IMG/VR virus record: IMGVR_UViG_3300048625_000166
Strand: one strand, 5' to 3'
Length of the DNA: 64,000 nt
Source: a virus
Taxonomy: Duplodnaviria; Heunggongvirae; Uroviricota; Caudoviricetes
Shown: piece after piece, positions 40,843 through 55,694 of the stretch
Numbering within the stretch: the stretch's first letter is position 1
Layout: every line of letters starts with the position of its first letter
The notes under the pieces: generated by a model
The model's database searches: none
What the model was told of the DNA's origin: nothing
What the model saw: only the letters and a program-made list of their open reading frames with translations
Position numbers and translations under genes: made by a program

Positions 40843-40908
40843 AACAGGATGCGCTTTTAGTTTCATCTATGAATTGAAATTTTAAAGTTTGCTGAATGCA
40901 TCCTAAAA
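40843..40908 (-). ncRNA. Y-like RNA A1 (RGGWT-N3-TN-CAGCA family), in the leader of the vWA gene
   Basis: AGGATGCATTCAGCAA...GCGCATCCTG; internal hairpin TTTCA-ATTCATAGA-TGAAA. Confidence 0.7.
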
Positions 40909-40913
40909 CTTGA

Positions 40914-40941
40914 TTGTACTACAGTAGTCATTGTATGTCAA
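40914..40941 (-). promoter_or_regulatory. sigma70-type promoter for A1 and the vWA gene
   Basis: TTGACA-17-TACAAT. Confidence 0.7.
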
Positions 40942-40960
40942 CTGTAGTTCGAAAAATAAA

Positions 40961-41114
40961 ACAGGATCGTTGTTGACTGCTTTTTGAATAGGGCCATCAC
41001 TCCTATTGCGATAGATGCATTTCAATAACTACCTTCAAAGTCCGTAGACTCCAGTAGTTACCATGCGATCCATCAGTTCCAATAAAGTAAATTATTGCTG
41101 TACCGATCCTAAAA
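40961..41114 (-). ncRNA. Y-like RNA A2
   Basis: AGGATCGGTACAGCAA...AACGATCCTG enclosing about 125 nt of hairpins. Confidence 0.65.
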
Positions 41115-41119
41115 ATAAA

Positions 41120-41370
41120 CGGGATGTTTGAACGTAGTTTATTTTATTGTCTGGTTGAGTCTAACTCACCTTTGCAGGACTTACGTTCCTCAACCATATC
41201 AACAATTCATGTTGACTATCTAGTAATTGAGTCTGCTACTAGCAACATAGAATGTCTTTCCATTCTGTCGTCTATTCCCTGAATGCTTAGTTGCCTAAGA
41301 GTATTGCTACTGTCTCCCGACCACCTTCTATAGCTGATAGTTTGATTTTTAAATGCTGAACACATCCCAG
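41120..41370 (-). ncRNA. Y-like RNA A3
   Basis: GGGATGTGTTCAGCAT...AAACATCCCG enclosing about 220 nt; TACAAT -10 box just upstream. Confidence 0.65.
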
Positions 41371-41427
41371 TCATTCAATACAAGTATTGTATCATCAATA
41401 CATGTGATTTTAAACTGTTTTGGGTAA

Positions 41428-42561
41428 CTATCGTAAATTAATTTTTACGTTAGGGTCTAATGTGATGCTAGACCAATTCTTGTTGAAATTGCCCCATATA
41501 TCTTTCTCATTCTTGTAATCAGAAAGCAATGATAGCAATTGTGGATTGAATCGCTCAACTATCTTACGTTGAATAAGACCTGTTGTGGAATTCAGGGTGA
41601 TATCCTCTACTGACATTCTATGAATCGTTTGAGGGATTCGTATGTCTGCGAAAGGACTAAAAGTCATGTTGTTGTCAATGTGCCAATACTGATGATCATA
41701 AAAAATTGTTGAGTATAAAAACTTCATCAACTGTTCTTGGTCGTAGTATTCTTCCATTGAATCTTTGTACTTGGCTACAACATTGGGACGCTTCAAAAAC
41801 CAATAAAGATAATCAGTTTCTTTAGCTAGTTCGTCAATGTGTTTGCCTTGATAGTTTGCCAATGCGTTGATTGCTTCGCCGTCACGGTACTGATATGTCT
41901 CTGCATAGAAGCCAGTTGCATACCAATTTAATTCCGTAAATGCACTTGATACATCATATCCCCAGTGTTTACTGGATACAAAGTCTACCAAGTCACTATC
42001 GTACTCTCTAACTCTGCCCAAAAACTTATGTAACGTATCGTCACCTTGTTTAGGCACATATGCTGTTAGAGTATAGTCTTTTGTGTAGCTGTCTAGTACA
42101 GCCCATGTTGTTAGGGTATCCAGTCCTGCTGAATACAACACATTCATGCGTTCAATATTATTGTACTTGTAGAAGTTTCGTGTGTTTTCTAACAATATAT
42201 CGCCGATGATAATCGACGACTCTTCCAATGACAGTAGGGTATCATTGGGAATTTTAGGTTCATTGTATGTAACAATGCCGTAGCCTTCAGTGGCTAGGTT
42301 TGTTTGTTCACCATTGCGTTCATATAATGGAAAACCTCTGAGAACTGGGTGATACACTTTTTCGTCATGTATCACGCACCATTTCCCAGCTGGCTGATAG
42401 CCATCAAGTATTTCTAGTAGCGTATCTGCTAGAGTACAATCTACGCTATAACCCTTATACCAGATGTTATCTTTTTGTTTCCAGCCGCCATCTAAAAACA
42501 GGCGATCTGAAACTTTGTTCATCGCCTGTATTGGACAATTGGATCCGATGTAGAAAAACAT
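41428..42561 (-). CDS. PP-loop/asparagine-synthetase-like protein
   Basis: VLYSAGLDT resembles the SGGxDS loop; late SPFAD resembles the PFLD motif. Confidence 0.45.
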   Translation of the reverse strand: MFFYIGSNCPIQAMNKVSDRLFLDGGWKQKDNIWYKGYSVDCTLADTLLEILDGYQPAGKWCVIHDEKVYHPVLRGFPLYERNGEQTNLATEGYGIVTYNEPKIPNDTLLSLEESSIIIGDILLENTRNFYKYNNIERMNVLYSAGLDTLTTWAVLDSYTKDYTLTAYVPKQGDDTLHKFLGRVREYDSDLVDFVSSKHWGYDVSSAFTELNWYATGFYAETYQYRDGEAINALANYQGKHIDELAKETDYLYWFLKRPNVVAKYKDSMEEYYDQEQLMKFLYSTIFYDHQYWHIDNNMTFSPFADIRIPQTIHRMSVEDITLNSTTGLIQRKIVERFNPQLLSLLSDYKNEKDIWGNFNKNWSSITLDPNVKINLR

Positions 42562-42785
42562 TATCGCTTGTTGCCGATGCGCTTTAGATAATCACGGCCG
42601 ACTAGGCCCTTTTCGATTTCTTGCAATGCAGTAACAAGATGGCCTGCTTTTGTTGCTAGTTTTGGTCGATGACCACGGGATAATTCACGAGTACGTTGAC
42701 TTGCGATTAGAATCAAATCATATCGATTGCCAACTGCATTAACTGCATCTTCGCTAGTATAGCGAACTCTACTTTCTGTCGTCAT
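42561..42785 (-). CDS. rpoZ: RNA polymerase omega subunit
   Basis: TSEDAVNAVGNRYDLILIASQRTREL...VTALQEIEKG. Confidence 0.85.
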   Translation of the reverse strand: MTTESRVRYTSEDAVNAVGNRYDLILIASQRTRELSRGHRPKLATKAGHLVTALQEIEKGLVGRDYLKRIGNKR

Positions 42786-42814
42786 TTTTTACCTTTTAAG
42801 GTTGTTAATAAACA

Positions 42815-42890
42815 TGGAGCGGGAAAAGGGGCTCGAACCCTCGACCTATACCTTGGCAAGGTATCGCTCTACCAACTGAGCTATTCCCGC
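42815..42890 (-). tRNA. tRNA-Gly(GCC)
   Basis: Cloverleaf, loop TTGCCAA, CCA. Confidence 0.95.
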
Positions 42891-42896
42891 ATGTTC

Positions 42897-42971
42897 TGGT
42901 ACATCGACACGGTTTCGAACCGCGGACCCTCTCCGTGTAAAGGAGACGCTCTACCCCTGAGCTATCGATGC
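42897..42971 (-). tRNA. tRNA-Val(TAC)
   Basis: Cloverleaf, loop TTTACAC, CCA. Confidence 0.95.
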
Positions 42972-42982
42972 ATATATTCTAT

Positions 42983-43171
42983 TTAGCCACCCTGTTGGCT
43001 ATCTTTAATTTCTGTTCCCCAGTCAATTTCCTTCTTGTCATCAGACATATCAGGTAATGGAGGTGGAACGTAACGTTCACGCTTTGGCTTTTCACCAAAG
43101 ATTTTGTCCATGTTCTCACCGAATTCTGTAGGACTAATACTAAATGGACGAGGACGAGAACCCTTGCTCAT
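42983..43171 (-). CDS. Small hypothetical protein
   Basis: MSKGSRPRPFSI... Confidence 0.6.
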   Translation of the reverse strand: MSKGSRPRPFSISPTEFGENMDKIFGEKPKRERYVPPPLPDMSDDKKEIDWGTEIKDSQQGG

Positions 43172-43338
43172 TACTTAGATTCCTTACGTGAACCCTTCTG
43201 ACGGGCATCGCTCTCTGCGATTTGTGTAAAGCTACGCAAGAATGCGCCACGCTTGTGTGAATCTAGAATTGTTGCAGATGCTATCTTAACTAGCTTGCCT
43301 AGCTTCACTGCTTTTGGATCATAACCTCTACATGTCAT
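43171..43338 (-). CDS. Small hypothetical protein (55 aa)
   Basis: AAGGA RBS; MTCRGYDPKAVKLGK...; not in the ORF track. Confidence 0.6.
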   Translation of the reverse strand: MTCRGYDPKAVKLGKLVKIASATILDSHKRGAFLRSFTQIAESDARQKGSRKESK

Positions 43339-43361
43339 ACTATTTTCCTTTTATGTTAAAT

Positions 43362-43439
43362 TGGTCTCGGTAGTAGGATTCGAACCTACGACCCTCTGCT
43401 CCCAAAGCAGATGCGCTAACCAGACTGCGCTACACCGAG
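43362..43439 (-). tRNA. tRNA-Pro(TGG)
   Basis: Cloverleaf, loop TTTGGGA, CCA. Confidence 0.95.
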
Positions 43440-54859: not shown

Positions 54860-54865
54860 ATTGTT

Positions 54866-54941
54866 TGGTAGATGTGAGTGGATTCGAACCACCGACCTGC
54901 TCCGTATGAAGGAGATGCACTAGCCGCTGTGCTACACATCC
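54866..54941 (-). tRNA. tRNA-Met(CAT), elongator-type
   Basis: Loop TTCATAC. Confidence 0.8.
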
Positions 54942-54947
54942 ATTGTA

Positions 54948-55022
54948 TGGTGCTCCTTGACAGAATCGAACTGCCACCCCTAGATTACAAAACTAGTCCA
55001 CTACCATTATGATTAAAAGAGC
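54948..55022 (-). tRNA. tRNA-Thr(TGT), divergent copy
   Basis: Loop TTTGTAA, U31:U39 mismatch. Confidence 0.8.
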
Positions 55023-55029
55023 AAATAAA

Positions 55030-55145
55030 ACAGGATACATTCTTGACGAATGCTCTACCAATTGAGCTAATCTCGCATGAAGCGAAATGTTGGAATCGAA
55101 CCAACGACACATCGTTTGATGTAGTTTGCTGTATGTATCCTAAAA
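55030..55145 (-). ncRNA. Y-like RNA A6 containing a permuted tRNA (truncated anticodon arm)
   Basis: AGGATACATACAGCAA...ATGTATCCTG; ACATC-AAAC-GATGT, GTTGG-TTCGATT-CCAAC, ATTTCGC-TTCAT-GCGAGAT, GCTC-AATTGGTA-GAGC. Confidence 0.8.
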
Positions 55146-55146
55146 T

Positions 55147-55266
55147 TGGCGCCGCCGGAGGGATTCGAACCCCCATCTCTTCCTTGACATGGAATTTTTA
55201 TATGCTGAACGTACTCTGTACAGAGTCACTTTTTATAAGTGTCCTGATCCATTAGACGACAGCGGC
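55147..55266 (-). ncRNA. 120-nt tRNA-like RNA with about 45 nt inserted between D and anticodon arms
   Basis: GCCGCTG/CGGCGGC-G-CCA; T arm GGGGG-TTCGAAT-CCCTC; TTCC-ATGTCAA-GGAA (Asp GTC-like). Confidence 0.65.
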
Positions 55267-55273
55267 GATAAAT

Positions 55274-55347
55274 TGGTGCGGGGTAAGGGAGTTGAACCCT
55301 TGACTAAACGTTGGCAACGTTTGATTTTACCGTTAAACTAACCACGC
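55274..55347 (-). tRNA. tRNA-Gly(GCC), divergent copy
   Basis: Loop TTGCCAA; A73, acceptor mismatch. Confidence 0.8.
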
Positions 55348-55355
55348 ATAAAAAC

Positions 55356-55432
55356 TGGAATACGGAGTGAGATTTGAACTCACGAATAACTGGTTTGCAA
55401 TCAGTCCCCTTAGGCCGCTCGGGCATCCGTAC
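55356..55432 (-). tRNA. tRNA-Cys(GCA)
   Basis: Loop TTGCAAA, U73. Confidence 0.85.
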
Positions 55433-55442
55433 ATAAATTGAT

Positions 55443-55518
55443 TGGTGCTGTTAACGTGATTCGAACACGTGACCTCATCCTTACCAAGGATGCGCTCTAC
55501 CACTAGAGCTATAACAGC
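55443..55518 (-). tRNA. tRNA-Thr(GGT)
   Basis: Loop TTGGTAA. Confidence 0.95.
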
Positions 55519-55528
55519 AAATTCACTT

Positions 55529-55605
55529 AGGGGTGACCGGTGGGACTTGAACCCACAAAAACCTGAGTCACAGTCAGGGTCGTCTACCAATTCCGACACG
55601 GCCAC
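55529..55605 (-). tRNA. tRNA-His(GTG), no encoded G-1 or CCA
   Basis: Loop CTGTGAC, C73; 3' end CCT; flanks pair (ACTTAGG/CCTAAGT). Confidence 0.8.
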
Positions 55606-55631
55606 ACCTAAGTAAACTTAGGAGAAATAAA

Positions 55632-55694
55632 ACAGGATGCGTTTTTGCTTTTTACCAATAAAAGTTTTTTTAATTGCTGAATGCATCCTAAAAA
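55632..55694 (-). ncRNA. Y-like RNA A7
   Basis: AGGATGCATTCAGCAA...CTTTT-ATTGGTA-AAAAG...ACGCATCCTG. Confidence 0.7.

What the first reader, a model, noticed from the sequence alone, without database searches (positions are those of the whole stretch)
40843..55694. Minimal Y-like RNAs present isolated anticodon stem-loops
The three shortest family members (about 60 nt) hold a single hairpin. A5 has TTCAA-CTTTTAA-TTGAA, a canonical Lys(UUU) loop identical to that of the phage tRNA-Lys. A1 has TTTCA-A-TTCATAG-A-TGAAA (CAU after U33). A7 has CTTTT-ATTGGTA-AAAAG (UGG after U33, less canonical). With Tyr(GUA) in A4 and Arg(UCU) in A8, the displayed loops overlap established nuclease targets: PrrC and PARIS AriB (Lys), VapC (fMet), colicin E5 and retron PtuAB (Tyr), colicin D (Arg). 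They cannot be aminoacylated, so decoy or sensor roles are plausible (inference).
Basis: partly seen in the sequence, partly recalled or inferred. Interest (0 to 1): 0.75.

Follow-up and report, generated by a model that had tools for sequence, protein, structure and literature searches.

The report
Phage Y-like RNAs displaying tRNA arms
A giant freshwater phage and hundreds of other phages encode, beside a Ro60-like RNA-binding protein, small RNAs that share one protein-binding handle and often carry a perfect copy of a tRNA anticodon arm, which may bait or distract the bacterial enzymes that cut tRNAs to stop phages.

Summary
Three 63-66-nt RNAs (A1, A5, A7) lie on the minus strand inside a 45-tRNA array of a 364-kb phage. 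They share a handle, UUUU-AGGAU-N5-CAGCAA ... AUCCU-GUU, with five longer members.

The gene just downstream of A1 (Pfam DUF2828/DUF7788) has a Ro60 fold, so "Y-like RNA" is a fair name.

In about 200 related phage loci, 58 of 155 minimal members carry a 5-bp stem with a CU-NNN-AA 7-nt loop. Shuffled and reversed controls give about zero. Stems covary and loops stay fixed, mostly UUU, UGU, UCU and GUA. Handle RNAs with anticodon-type loops also occur in cultured Campylobacter, Mycobacterium, Synechococcus, Enterococcus and E. coli phages.

- A5 is a genuine Lys(UUU)-type anticodon arm.
- A1 is the 5' leader of the Ro-like mRNA, with a conserved CAUA loop of varying geometry.
- A7 is not anticodon-like. 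Its loop is identical to the D-loop core of the phage's own tRNAs.

The decoy or sensor role remains inference. It is helped by published data: a Ro60-like gene placed the same way in E. coli phage Bas63 counters a defence system, and the nucleases OLD and PARIS AriB cut Thr(UGU) and Lys(UUU) anticodon arms at U36-A-A-U39, a motif these mimics keep.

The parts
40843..40908 (-). A1: minimal Y-like RNA (66 nt with flanks). Handle AGGATGC/GCATCCT plus CAGCAA; hairpin 40861-40879 with loop A-TTCATAG-A. It forms the 5' leader of the Ro-like mRNA.
   Evidence: Promoter TTGACA-17-TACAAT at 40941-40913. Leader position is conserved in 43 of 70 loci, and all 10 CAUA loops lie there.
46070..46132 (-). 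A5: minimal Y-like RNA between tRNA-Ser(UGA) and tRNA-Trp. It carries a canonical anticodon arm TTCAA-CTTTTAA-TTGAA (46086-46102), of Lys UUU type.
   Evidence: Homologues with covarying stems and a fixed CUUNUAA loop.
55631..55693 (-). A7: minimal Y-like RNA with hairpin CTTTT-ATTGGTA-AAAAG (55648-55664). The loop equals a tRNA D-loop core and is not a canonical anticodon loop. It sits directly after a terminator-like hairpin (55721-55699).
39394..40815 (-). Ro60-fold protein gene (473 aa; Pfam DUF2828 + DUF7788, weak vWA_Ro60).
   Evidence: Pfam. AF2 model with pLDDT 76. The top 13 Foldseek PDB hits are all Ro60, E 1e-9 to 2e-5. Synteny with the RNAs in 35 of 119 and 70 of 78 loci.
40913..40941 (-). 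Sigma-70-type promoter (TTGACA-17-TACAAT, 11 of 12 matches) firing into A1 and the Ro-like gene.
40960..41114 (-). A2: 155-nt family member with a complex, non-tRNA-like insert.
41117..41369 (-). A3: roughly 250-nt member with a degenerate handle (GGGATG...CAGCAT...CATCCCGTT), of the 225-260-nt class.
43611..43732 (-). A4: circularly permuted whole-tRNA mimic on the handle, in the order anticodon arm CTGTAAA (43687-43703), T arm, capped acceptor, D arm.
55029..55145 (-). A6: YrlA-like member (T arm, capped acceptor, D arm). Rfam YrlA 31.3 bits, below the gathering score of 69.
56520..56623 (-). A8: tRNA-like member in normal arm order, with the acceptor stem replaced by the handle. Anticodon arm TTTGA-CTTCTAA-TCAAA (56561-56577). 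It lies outside the finding's range.

Best explanation
A1, A5 and A7 are the minimal members of a large phage family of Y-RNA-like RNAs.

The invariant part is a handle. The 5' and 3' ends pair in a 7-10-bp stem, followed on the 5' side by (U/A)CAGCAA and on the 3' side by an A-rich strand and G(UU). By analogy with Ro60 and Y RNA, this handle is the docking site of the Ro60-fold protein encoded next door. That protein would also shield the RNA ends from exonucleases.

The variable part is cargo built from tRNA pieces: a whole permuted tRNA mimic (A4, A6), an acceptor-less tRNA (A8), or a single arm in the minimal RNAs.

- A5 presents a genuine tRNA-Lys(UUU)-type anticodon arm that keeps the A31-U39 pair, and so the U36-A-A-U39 motif.
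- A7 presents a D-loop-like GG loop.
- A1 is the same handle with a CAUA loop, placed at the very 5' end of the Ro-like mRNA. There it probably also lets the protein control or accompany its own message.

Proposed action (inferred): the RNAs are cut out of the tRNA-array transcript and bound by the Ro-like protein. They then offer non-chargeable tRNA arms to proteins that recognise those arms, most likely host anticodon-arm nucleases of the OLD/PARIS-AriB/PrrC kind. They would act as competitors or baits while the phage's own tRNAs, which are altered at position 39, keep translation going.

Shown here: the family, the handle, the gene linkage, the Ro60 fold, and selection on anticodon-type loops. 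Inferred: binding of the protein to the handle, processing of the RNAs, and the bait or decoy action.
For: Family and strand bias:
- 7 handles in the genome, all on one strand.
- 175 complete elements in 119 IMG/VR loci.
- In 78 loci found through the protein alone, 225 handles lie on the Ro-gene strand and 11 on the other strand.

Ro60 fold and linkage.

Anticodon-loop enrichment:
- 43 of 84 minimal elements have 7-nt MFE loops; shuffles average 4.7.
- 28 of 84 have CU-NNN-AA; shuffles average 0.07.
- With a stem-plus-loop pattern search, 34 of 84 and 28 of 78 have CU-NNN-AA; reversed sequences give 0.
- Pooled, 58 of 155 minimal elements have it.

Stems covary under a constant loop: at least 9 stem variants, with 4 of the 5 stem pairs changed on both sides. 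The A31-U39 pair is kept in 44 of 53 CUUNUAA arms.

The same handle with anticodon-type loops occurs in cultured Campylobacter, Mycobacterium, Synechococcus, Enterococcus and E. coli phages.

Literature:
- A phage Ro60 binds upstream Y-like RNAs (PMC12135203).
- The Ro-like protein of Listeria phage CKA15 is found in virions, with three very abundant early RNAs upstream of its gene (PMC12282133).
- The Ro60-like gp130 of E. coli phage Bas63, directly upstream of its tRNA array, counters the Ppl defence (PMC11482910).
- AriB cuts tRNA-Lys(UUU), Thr(UGU) and Asn(GUU), and needs U39 (PMC12409363).
- OLD cuts anticodon arms and prefers tRNA-Thr(UGU) (PMC13648713).
Against:
- The hairpins are very AU-rich and thermodynamically marginal.
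- About 40% of minimal members have loops in none of the three classes, so anticodon display is one cargo type, not the rule.
- The inserts are AU-rich, which alone favours anticodons such as UUU, UGU and UCU.
- AriB also reads the D-loop (PMC12409363), which a bare arm lacks.
- The one defence that a Ro60-like phage protein is shown to counter, Ppl (Bas63 gp130), is currently thought to attack DNA ends, not tRNA (PMC13648713).
- The hosts of these freshwater phages, and their nucleases, are unknown.
Confidence: 0.45

Rival explanations
1. Classical Y-RNA tether. The tRNA-arm cargo does not distract nucleases. Instead it recruits a helper to the Ro-like ring, such as PNPase, an RNA ligase or repair enzyme, the CCA-adding enzyme or a tRNA-modifying enzyme. 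The ring would then be specialised for surveillance, repair or decay of damaged tRNAs during infection.
For: - Ro60, Y RNA and PNPase form machines in Deinococcus and Salmonella, and a phage Ro60-Yrl-PNPase complex is known (PMC4201824, PMC12135203).
- RNA ligase, RtcB-type ligase and tRNA nucleotidyltransferase genes lie near the Ro-like gene in Serratia phage BF and Listeria phage LMTA-57.
- YrlA is modified by tRNA enzymes (PMC4201824).
- The cargo is diverse, including D-loop-like and large non-tRNA domains. That fits many different partners.
Against: - PNPase and the ligases are not known to need an anticodon loop.
- The tight conservation of C32-U33...A37-A38 and of the A31-U39 pair points to a reader specific for the anticodon arm.
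- No RNA ligase family was found among the ten larger ORFs of the array region scanned against Pfam.
Confidence: 0.25
2. Chiefly cis-regulatory; this applies above all to A1. The minimal element at the 5' end of the Ro-like mRNA would be an operator through which the protein autoregulates its translation or stability. Its loop sequence would be incidental or a tuning feature, not a tRNA mimic.
For: - A promoter fires directly into A1, and the element ends 28 nt before the start codon, just ahead of the ribosome-binding site.
- In 43 of 70 loci an element ends 20-36 nt before the Ro-like start codon.
- All 10 CAUA loops are in that position and none elsewhere.
- Leader loops vary widely (CAUA, anticodon-type, other), and the CAU register shifts between homologues.
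Against: - This does not explain A5, A7 or the 21 free-standing anticodon-arm elements scattered among tRNA genes.
- 7 leader elements do carry canonical CU-NNN-AA arms.
- A test for pairing between the CAU loop and the start-codon context found no consistent complementarity.
Confidence: 0.2
3. Decay products. The minimal elements would be eroded tRNA-like Y RNAs. Only the handle would work, for example by titrating or stabilising the protein, and the anticodon-like loops would be leftovers inherited from tRNA ancestors.
For: - All grades exist between a whole permuted tRNA mimic, T-arm-only forms and single hairpins.
- Many minimal loops fit no class.
Against: - Loops stay CU-NNN-AA while stems change on both sides. 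The loops are never seen in reverse orientation. The same design recurs in phages of Actinobacteria, Campylobacterota, Cyanobacteria and Firmicutes.
- Neutral decay in such AU-rich spacers would erase a 7-nt loop quickly.
Confidence: 0.07
4. Processing punctuation. The handles would be RNase or terminator signals that help cut the long tRNA-array transcript, with no role in trans.
For: - The elements sit tightly between tRNA genes and end in G-U-U-U-U-A-U.
- A terminator-like hairpin abuts A7.
Against: - The handle stem encloses 30-240 nt, so it is not a terminator hairpin.
- Most tRNA junctions lack the element.
- The elements cluster at the Ro-like gene even in phages with few tRNAs, such as the mycobacteriophages and the Staphylococcus phage.
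Confidence: 0.03

Closest known systems
Bacterial and phage Y RNAs with Ro60 (YrlA/YrlB of Salmonella, Yrn1 of Deinococcus, Yrl1/Yrl2 of Thermus phage phiLo; Rfam RF02553)
   Same: - Small RNAs encoded next to a Ro60-fold gene.
- The 5' and 3' ends pair in a stem next to a conserved unpaired motif.
- The variable module mimics tRNA (T arm, capped acceptor, D arm in A4 and A6).
- Several different RNAs per genome, including short ones without the tRNA-like domain (YrlB).
   Different: - The handle sequence (CAGCAA) differs from the YrlA consensus. The best Rfam scores are 31-32 bits against a gathering score of 69, and the minimal members give no hit.
- The protein matches Pfam DUF2828/DUF7788, not TROVE.
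- YrlA replaces the anticodon arm with the Ro stem, whereas here the anticodon arm is kept or displayed alone. Yrn1's 'anticodon arm' has a 6-nt loop (PMC4201824); here the loops are canonical 7-nt CU-NNN-AA.
- The minimal members are 50-67 nt, against 80-130 nt.
Phage tRNAs that escape tRNA-cutting defences (T5 tRNA-Lys, -Thr and -Asn against PARIS AriB; T5 tRNA-Tyr against retron PtuAB)
   Same: - Phage-encoded RNAs in tRNA arrays with the same anticodons (UUU, UGU, GUU, GUA).
- Position 39 is the decisive site. This phage's own tRNA-Lys and tRNA-Thr have C39 and G39, comparable with T5's U39A (PMC12409363).
   Different: - Those are functional, chargeable tRNAs that replace the cut host tRNAs.
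- The Y-like arms cannot be charged and keep the susceptible-looking U36-A-A-U39 motif. If they act in defence evasion, it must be by competition or sensing, not by replacement.
RNA decoys in phage-host conflict (pseudo-ToxI antitoxin repeats; RNA anti-CRISPRs that mimic crRNA repeats)
   Same: A phage-encoded non-coding RNA that imitates the RNA ligand or substrate of a host immune protein.
   Different: - No binding to any immune protein has been shown here.
- These RNAs come with a dedicated Ro60-fold partner and an interchangeable cargo slot, which the known decoys lack.
Anticodon-arm mimics in mRNA operators (E. coli thrS operator bound by ThrRS)
   Same: A stem-loop outside a tRNA that copies an anticodon arm in order to bind a tRNA-recognising protein. 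Like A1, it sits in a 5' leader just upstream of the start codon.
   Different: - The thrS operator regulates the synthetase's own gene.
- Here the downstream gene is a Ro60-like protein, and most mimics stand free among tRNA genes.
- (From general knowledge.)

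Membership tests
Y RNA / Ro60 ribonucleoprotein (functional class) | Encoded next to a Ro60 (TROVE + vWA ring) protein gene | tested here: met
   The adjacent 473-aa protein has a Ro60 fold: its top 13 PDB hits are all Ro60. The RNAs lie directly upstream on the same strand in 35 of 119 RNA-anchored loci and most of the 78 protein-anchored loci. The Pfam TROVE model itself does not match anywhere in the genome.
Y RNA / Ro60 ribonucleoprotein (functional class) | The 5' and 3' ends form a stem that carries a conserved protein-binding motif, with a variable module distal to it | tested here: met
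   A 7-10-bp terminal stem with covarying positions, an invariant CAGCAA and an A-rich 3' strand. Inserts range from about 25 to 240 nt.
Y RNA / Ro60 ribonucleoprotein (functional class) | Physically bound by the Ro60 protein | not testable with these tools
   The complex predictor takes proteins only. The claim rests on analogy with phiLo Ro60-Yrl (PMC12135203).
Rfam YrlA (RF02553) | Covariance-model score at or above the gathering threshold (69 bits) | tested here: not met
   The best scores are 32.3 and 31.3 bits, at 45326-45425 and 55029-55141. A1, A5 and A7 give no YrlA hit.
Rfam YrlA (RF02553) | tRNA-like domain made of a T arm, an acceptor-like hairpin and a D arm | tested here: not met
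   0 of 155 minimal elements have a T-arm hairpin. A4 and A6 do have the domain.
Canonical tRNA anticodon stem-loop | 5-bp stem closing a 7-nt loop | tested here: met
   - A5: yes, in the MFE and centroid folds.
- A7: the hairpin can be drawn, and appears when the insert alone is folded, but it is absent from the MFE of the whole RNA.
- A1: a 9-nt loop, or a 7-nt loop closed by an A-A mismatch.
Canonical tRNA anticodon stem-loop | Y32-U33 ... R37 signature, kept in homologues | tested here: inconclusive
   - A5 class: met. C32, U33, A37 and A38 are at least 90% conserved across 31 aligned homologues.
- A1: has U33 and A37, but homologues shift the register of CAUA.
- A7: has A32 and U37, and its homologues' loops are 5-8 nt and keep only UGG. 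Not met for A7.
Functional (chargeable) tRNA | Acceptor stem with a free 3' end, plus T and D arms | tested here: not met
   Neither ARAGORN nor Rfam tRNA calls A1, A5 or A7. They hold only one hairpin besides the handle.
tRNA D-arm (tested for A7 only) | Loop with A14...Y-Y-G18-G19-Y-A21 on a short stem | tested here: met
   ATTGGTA occurs at position 15 of five tRNAs of this phage (Leu x3, Tyr, His) and in the D arm of A6. The variable loop length of the A7 class fits the natural length variation of D-loops. The resemblance is in sequence only.

The most novel reading that the evidence does not exclude
A widespread, modular phage counter-defence RNP. A Ro60-like ring holds a universal RNA handle whose cargo slot is loaded with exchangeable anticodon arms (Lys UUU, Thr UGU, Arg UCU, Tyr GUA, Asn GUU and others). 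These arms serve as nuclease-specific baits or decoys, or as cleavage sensors, against tRNA-cutting immune systems such as OLD, PARIS AriB, PrrC/RloC and PtuAB. They would complement the escape-mutant tRNAs encoded in the same array.
Probability: 0.25. Interest if true: 0.85.

Novelty: new variant of a known kind. Interest (0 to 1): 0.7.

Why it matters
The function of Ro60 and Y RNA in bacteria and phages is a long-standing open question, and so is the reason why Y RNAs mimic tRNA. This family sharpens both questions.

The cargo of the RNA is not a vague "tRNA-like domain". It is a set of separable tRNA arms, including exact anticodon arms whose identities overlap the targets of anticodon-arm nucleases.

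The same RNP is present in easily handled phages: Felix-O1-like E. coli and Salmonella phages, Listeria P100-like phages and mycobacteriophages. A Ro60-like gene with the same placement in E. coli phage Bas63 already scores as an anti-defence factor. The hypothesis can therefore be tested directly with existing strains and purified nucleases.

The work also gives annotators a simple signature for RNAs that are currently unannotated or mis-called as tRNAs or pseudo-tRNAs: stem - NCAGCAA - cargo - stem - G, beside a DUF2828 gene.

Tried and rejected
- Known RNA family: Rfam at gathering thresholds finds only tRNAs and GOLLD. At E<=1 the minimal RNAs hit only Dictyostelium class I RNA, below threshold (26-34 bits against 41.5), which I treat as chance.
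- TROVE domain in the genome: none found. The Ro60 relationship appears only at the level of fold. A sequence search of the PDB gave nothing.
- Close cultured relatives by DNA: only tRNA-sized matches.
- A1's CAU loop pairing with the Ro-like start codon as an anti-start element: the window shows 5 nt of complementarity (CAUAG/CUAUG), but L030 and L025 do not follow it. Rejected.
- A7 as a Pro(UGG) anticodon arm: rejected in favour of a D-loop-like GG loop.
- Terminator or promoter reading of the handles: the scan places a promoter before A1 and a terminator-like hairpin before A7, but the handles themselves are not called.
- Single-sequence folding as support for the hairpins: not significant.
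- Literature searches for DUF2828, for Ro-like phage RNAs and for anticodon decoys found no description of this handle or of anticodon arms on Y-like RNAs.
- Ppl as a tRNA nuclease: the papers read do not support this.
- With a 6-bp stem allowed, the generic handle scanner gives false positives inside coding regions. Only hits in intergenic tRNA or Ro-gene neighbourhoods were used.

Full report
**Setting.** The window is part of a complete 364-kb phage genome with terminal repeats. Between about 42.8 and 58 kb it carries 45 tRNA genes, all on the minus strand, plus a GOLLD RNA. No close cultured relative exists at the DNA level.

**Observation.** On the minus strand, seven places share the motif UUUU-AGGAU-N4-N-CAGCAA. 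Each is closed 30-130 nt downstream by the complementary N-AUCCU-GUU. These are the only seven matches in the whole genome, all on one strand, and a control pattern gives none. An eighth copy has a degenerate handle at 41117-41369.

The three short members are A1 (40843-40908), A5 (46070-46132) and A7 (55631-55693). The A5 loop CTTTTAA equals the loop of the phage tRNA-Lys(UUU), although the stems differ. A4 carries CTGTAAA and A8 carries CTTCTAA.

Taken singly, the folds are not better than shuffles (z = -1.0, -1.65, -0.9), and the A7 hairpin is missing from the MFE of the full RNA. The case for the hairpins therefore has to be comparative.

**The protein partner.** The ORF directly downstream of A1 (39394-40815, 473 aa) matches Pfam DUF2828 and DUF7788, with a faint vWA_Ro60 signal. 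The TROVE model does not match anywhere in the genome, and a sequence search of the PDB is empty.

An AlphaFold model built on 16 homologues (pLDDT 76, pTM 0.73) matches Ro60 over its full length. The 13 best Foldseek hits are all Ro60: Thermus phage phiLo, Xenopus, Deinococcus and human, with E from 1e-9 to 2e-5 and TM up to 0.59. Only isolated vWA domains follow.

A sigma-70-type promoter (TTGACA-17-TACAAT, 40941-40913) fires straight into A1. A1 ends 28 nt before the start codon, just ahead of the ribosome-binding site.

**The family elsewhere.**
- A scan of IMG/VR with the 5' handle returned at least 119 loci. They hold 228 5' motifs, of which 175 are complete elements (170 unique). These fall into size classes of 48-67 nt (single hairpin), about 98 and 110-118 nt (tRNA-like), and 150-260 nt (other folds).
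- The Ro-like gene is present in 35 of these loci, always on the same strand, usually with elements immediately upstream.
- A second, independent sample was anchored on the protein only (78 further loci). It was searched with a generic rule: a stem of at least 7 bp, 0-4 nt, NCAGCAA, then the closing stem followed by G. This gave 225 elements on the strand of the Ro-like gene and 11 on the other strand.
- Handle statistics: seven pairs were imposed by the search. Beyond those, the handle has U at position 9 (87%), an invariant CAGCAA, an A-rich 3' strand, upstream A-G-U-U-U-U and downstream G-U-U.

- Of the 84 unique minimal elements in the first sample, 43 have a 7-nt MFE loop; dinucleotide shuffles average 4.7 with a maximum of 11.
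- 31 fit YU-NNN-R-N; shuffles average 0.37.
- 28 fit CU-NNN-AA; shuffles average 0.07.
- A folding-free search for a 5-bp stem plus CU-NNN-AA finds 34 of 84. It finds none when the same sequences are read backwards, which keeps every stem but reverses the loops.
- The protein-anchored sample repeats this: 28 of 78 against 0. Pooled, 58 of 155 minimal elements qualify.
- The "anticodons" in minimal members are mainly UUU, UGU, UCU, GUA and UGA. In the tRNA-like members they are UCU, GAA, GUA, ACG, UAG and others.
- In an alignment of 31 such elements, the arm's stem shows at least nine sequence variants. Four of its five pairs change on both sides, while C32, U33, A37 and A38 are at least 90% conserved. 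The sequences were selected for having the arm, so the percentage paired is circular; the compensatory changes are not.
- The 31-39 pair is A-U in 44 of 53 CUUNUAA arms, so U36-A-A-U39 is conserved. The 30-40 and 31-39 pairs read GA/UC in 22 of them. [quoted passage not shown]

**The three RNAs are three different classes.**
- A5 belongs to the anticodon-arm class described above.
- A7 belongs to a class that keeps only (A/U)U(U)GG in loops of 5-8 nt. Its own loop has A32 and U37. The 7-mer AUUGGUA is identical to the D-loop core at position 15 of five of the phage's tRNAs and to the D arm of A6. A D-loop-like GG loop is the better description. A CCA-pairing UGG loop is a further untested possibility.
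- A1 belongs to a class defined by position. In 43 of 70 loci an element ends 20-36 nt before the Ro-like start codon, and 36 of those are minimal. All 10 CAUA loops are found there and none elsewhere. The register of CAU within the loop shifts between homologues, so this is only loosely a Met-type anticodon loop.
- Among minimal elements that are not leaders, 21 of 42 are canonical anticodon arms.
- No minimal element carries a T arm. T-arm-only forms do exist at 71-95 nt.

**Distant cultured phages.** The Ro-like protein is encoded by 709 records in the phage collection: Felix-O1-like E. coli and Salmonella phages, and Listeria, Staphylococcus, Campylobacter, Bacillus, Enterococcus, Vibrio and Mycobacterium phages. 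In the last group it is annotated "Ro-like RNA binding protein". It sits beside tRNA arrays and often near RNA ligase or CCA-adding genes.

The same handle (stem, ACAGCAA, cargo, stem, G) flanks it in these phages, and anticodon-type loops recur:
- Campylobacter F352: CATTA-CTGCTAA-TGATG.
- Mycobacteriophage Clautastrophe: TTTCA-CTGCTAA-TGAAA.
- Synechococcus phage BUCT-ZZ01: TTTCAA-CTTTTAC-TTGAAA.
- Enterococcus EFGrNG: CTGAAAA.
- E. coli phage SUSP2: a permuted tRNA mimic with CTGGTAA.
- Listeria, Bacillus and Staphylococcus phages also show GG loops of the A7 kind.

**What is known.**
- Ro60-linked, tRNA-mimicking Y RNAs in bacteria and phages were described in 2014. Their anticodon arm is replaced by the Ro stem, or in Yrn1 has a 6-nt loop (PMC4201824).
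- Thermus phage phiLo Ro60 binds two upstream Y-like RNAs and host PNPase (PMC12135203).
- In Listeria phage CKA15 the Ro-like protein is found in virions. Three very abundant early RNAs map just upstream and were guessed to be Y RNAs (PMC12282133).
- In E. coli phage Bas63 the Ro60-like gp130, directly upstream of the tRNA array, is needed against the Ppl defence (PMC11482910). That gp130 is a homologue of the window's protein is my inference from phage family and gene order.
- PARIS AriB cuts tRNA-Lys(UUU), Thr(UGU) and Asn(GUU) next to a conserved U36-A-A-U39, and U39A abolishes cleavage (PMC12409363).
- P2 OLD severs anticodon arms and prefers tRNA-Thr(UGU). Ppl, in contrast, is thought to act on DNA ends (PMC13648713).
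- I found no paper describing this handle, or anticodon arms on Y-like RNAs. Rfam 15 has no model for it.

**Mechanism.** Four things are shown here: a conserved RNA handle genetically coupled to a Ro60-fold protein; cargo made of tRNA parts; purifying selection on anticodon-type loops in one cargo class; and a leader copy on the protein's own mRNA.

The rest is inferred. The protein would bind the handle and stabilise the RNA. The displayed arm would engage a protein that reads anticodon arms.

I favour bait or competitor action against anticodon-arm nucleases, for four reasons:
- The arms are exact yet cannot be charged.
- They keep the U36-A-A-U39 motif, whereas the phage's own tRNA-Lys and tRNA-Thr have C39 and G39.
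- The anticodons overlap the target sets of AriB, OLD and PrrC.
- A Ro60-like protein in the same genomic position in another phage is an anti-defence factor.

Against this reading:
- The AU-rich composition alone favours these triplets.
- AriB also reads the D-loop.
- Ppl is not a known tRNase.
- About 40% of minimal RNAs carry other loops.

The tether model (recruiting repair or decay enzymes) and, for A1, autoregulation remain live alternatives.

**Novelty.** The Ro60/Y-RNA kind is known, including in phages. The handle, the DUF2828 partner, the separable tRNA arms, and above all the isolated canonical anticodon arms appear to be undescribed. I class the finding as a new variant of a known kind. 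It has high practical value because the system exists in laboratory E. coli, Listeria and Mycobacterium phages.

Noticed in passing
window 44325-44788 (-): A full-length GOLLD RNA (203.5 bits) lies inside the tRNA array. It encloses a tRNA-like unit (44652-44726) with an 8-nt anticodon loop that ARAGORN reads as a 4-base anticodon, uuuc.
   Followed up: no
window 45326-45425 (-): A second weak YrlA match (32.3 bits) has a T arm but a different closing stem (ATTGTTGAA/TTCAACAAT) and no CAGCAA handle. It lies about 60 nt downstream of a strong promoter (45514-45486). It may be a different kind of tRNA-like RNA.
   Followed up: no
window 55699-55721 (-): A terminator-like hairpin (9 bp followed by a U tract) ends the 217-aa ORF 55742-56395. 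Its U tract runs straight into the UUUU that starts A7, so A7 would be made only by read-through or from an unseen promoter.
   Followed up: no
window 48348-48776 (-) and 50431-50991 (-): HNH homing-endonuclease ORFs are interspersed among the tRNA genes. Similar HNH genes sit beside the Ro-like gene in Vibrio, Staphylococcus and Bacillus phages.
   Followed up: no
window 46558-46632 and 50290-50364 (-): [quoted passage not shown] Position 39 is the site where the T5 tRNA-Lys escapes PARIS AriB. Both phage tRNA-Asn(GUU) copies keep U39-C40-A41.
   Followed up: partly
L206 (Bacillus phage PBC2) 4275-4397: A gene annotated as tRNA-Ile lies inside a CAGCAA handle (AAGGCAC...GTGCCTT). Some annotated phage tRNAs or pseudo-tRNAs may really be Y-like RNAs of the A8 type. 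In this locus the tRNA strand in the feature table also disagrees with the sequence.
   Followed up: no
window 40960-41369 (-) and loci such as L007, L052, L074, L079: Two long cargo classes (about 150-165 nt and 225-260 nt) have conserved, non-tRNA-like sequence, for example ...CTATAGAAGGTGGTCGG... . They sit in a fixed order upstream of the leader element and the Ro-like gene. Their folds are unexamined.
   Followed up: no
window 41428-42561 (-) and 51897-52985 (-): Two large ORFs (377 and 362 aa) in or beside the tRNA array have no Pfam match.
   Followed up: no
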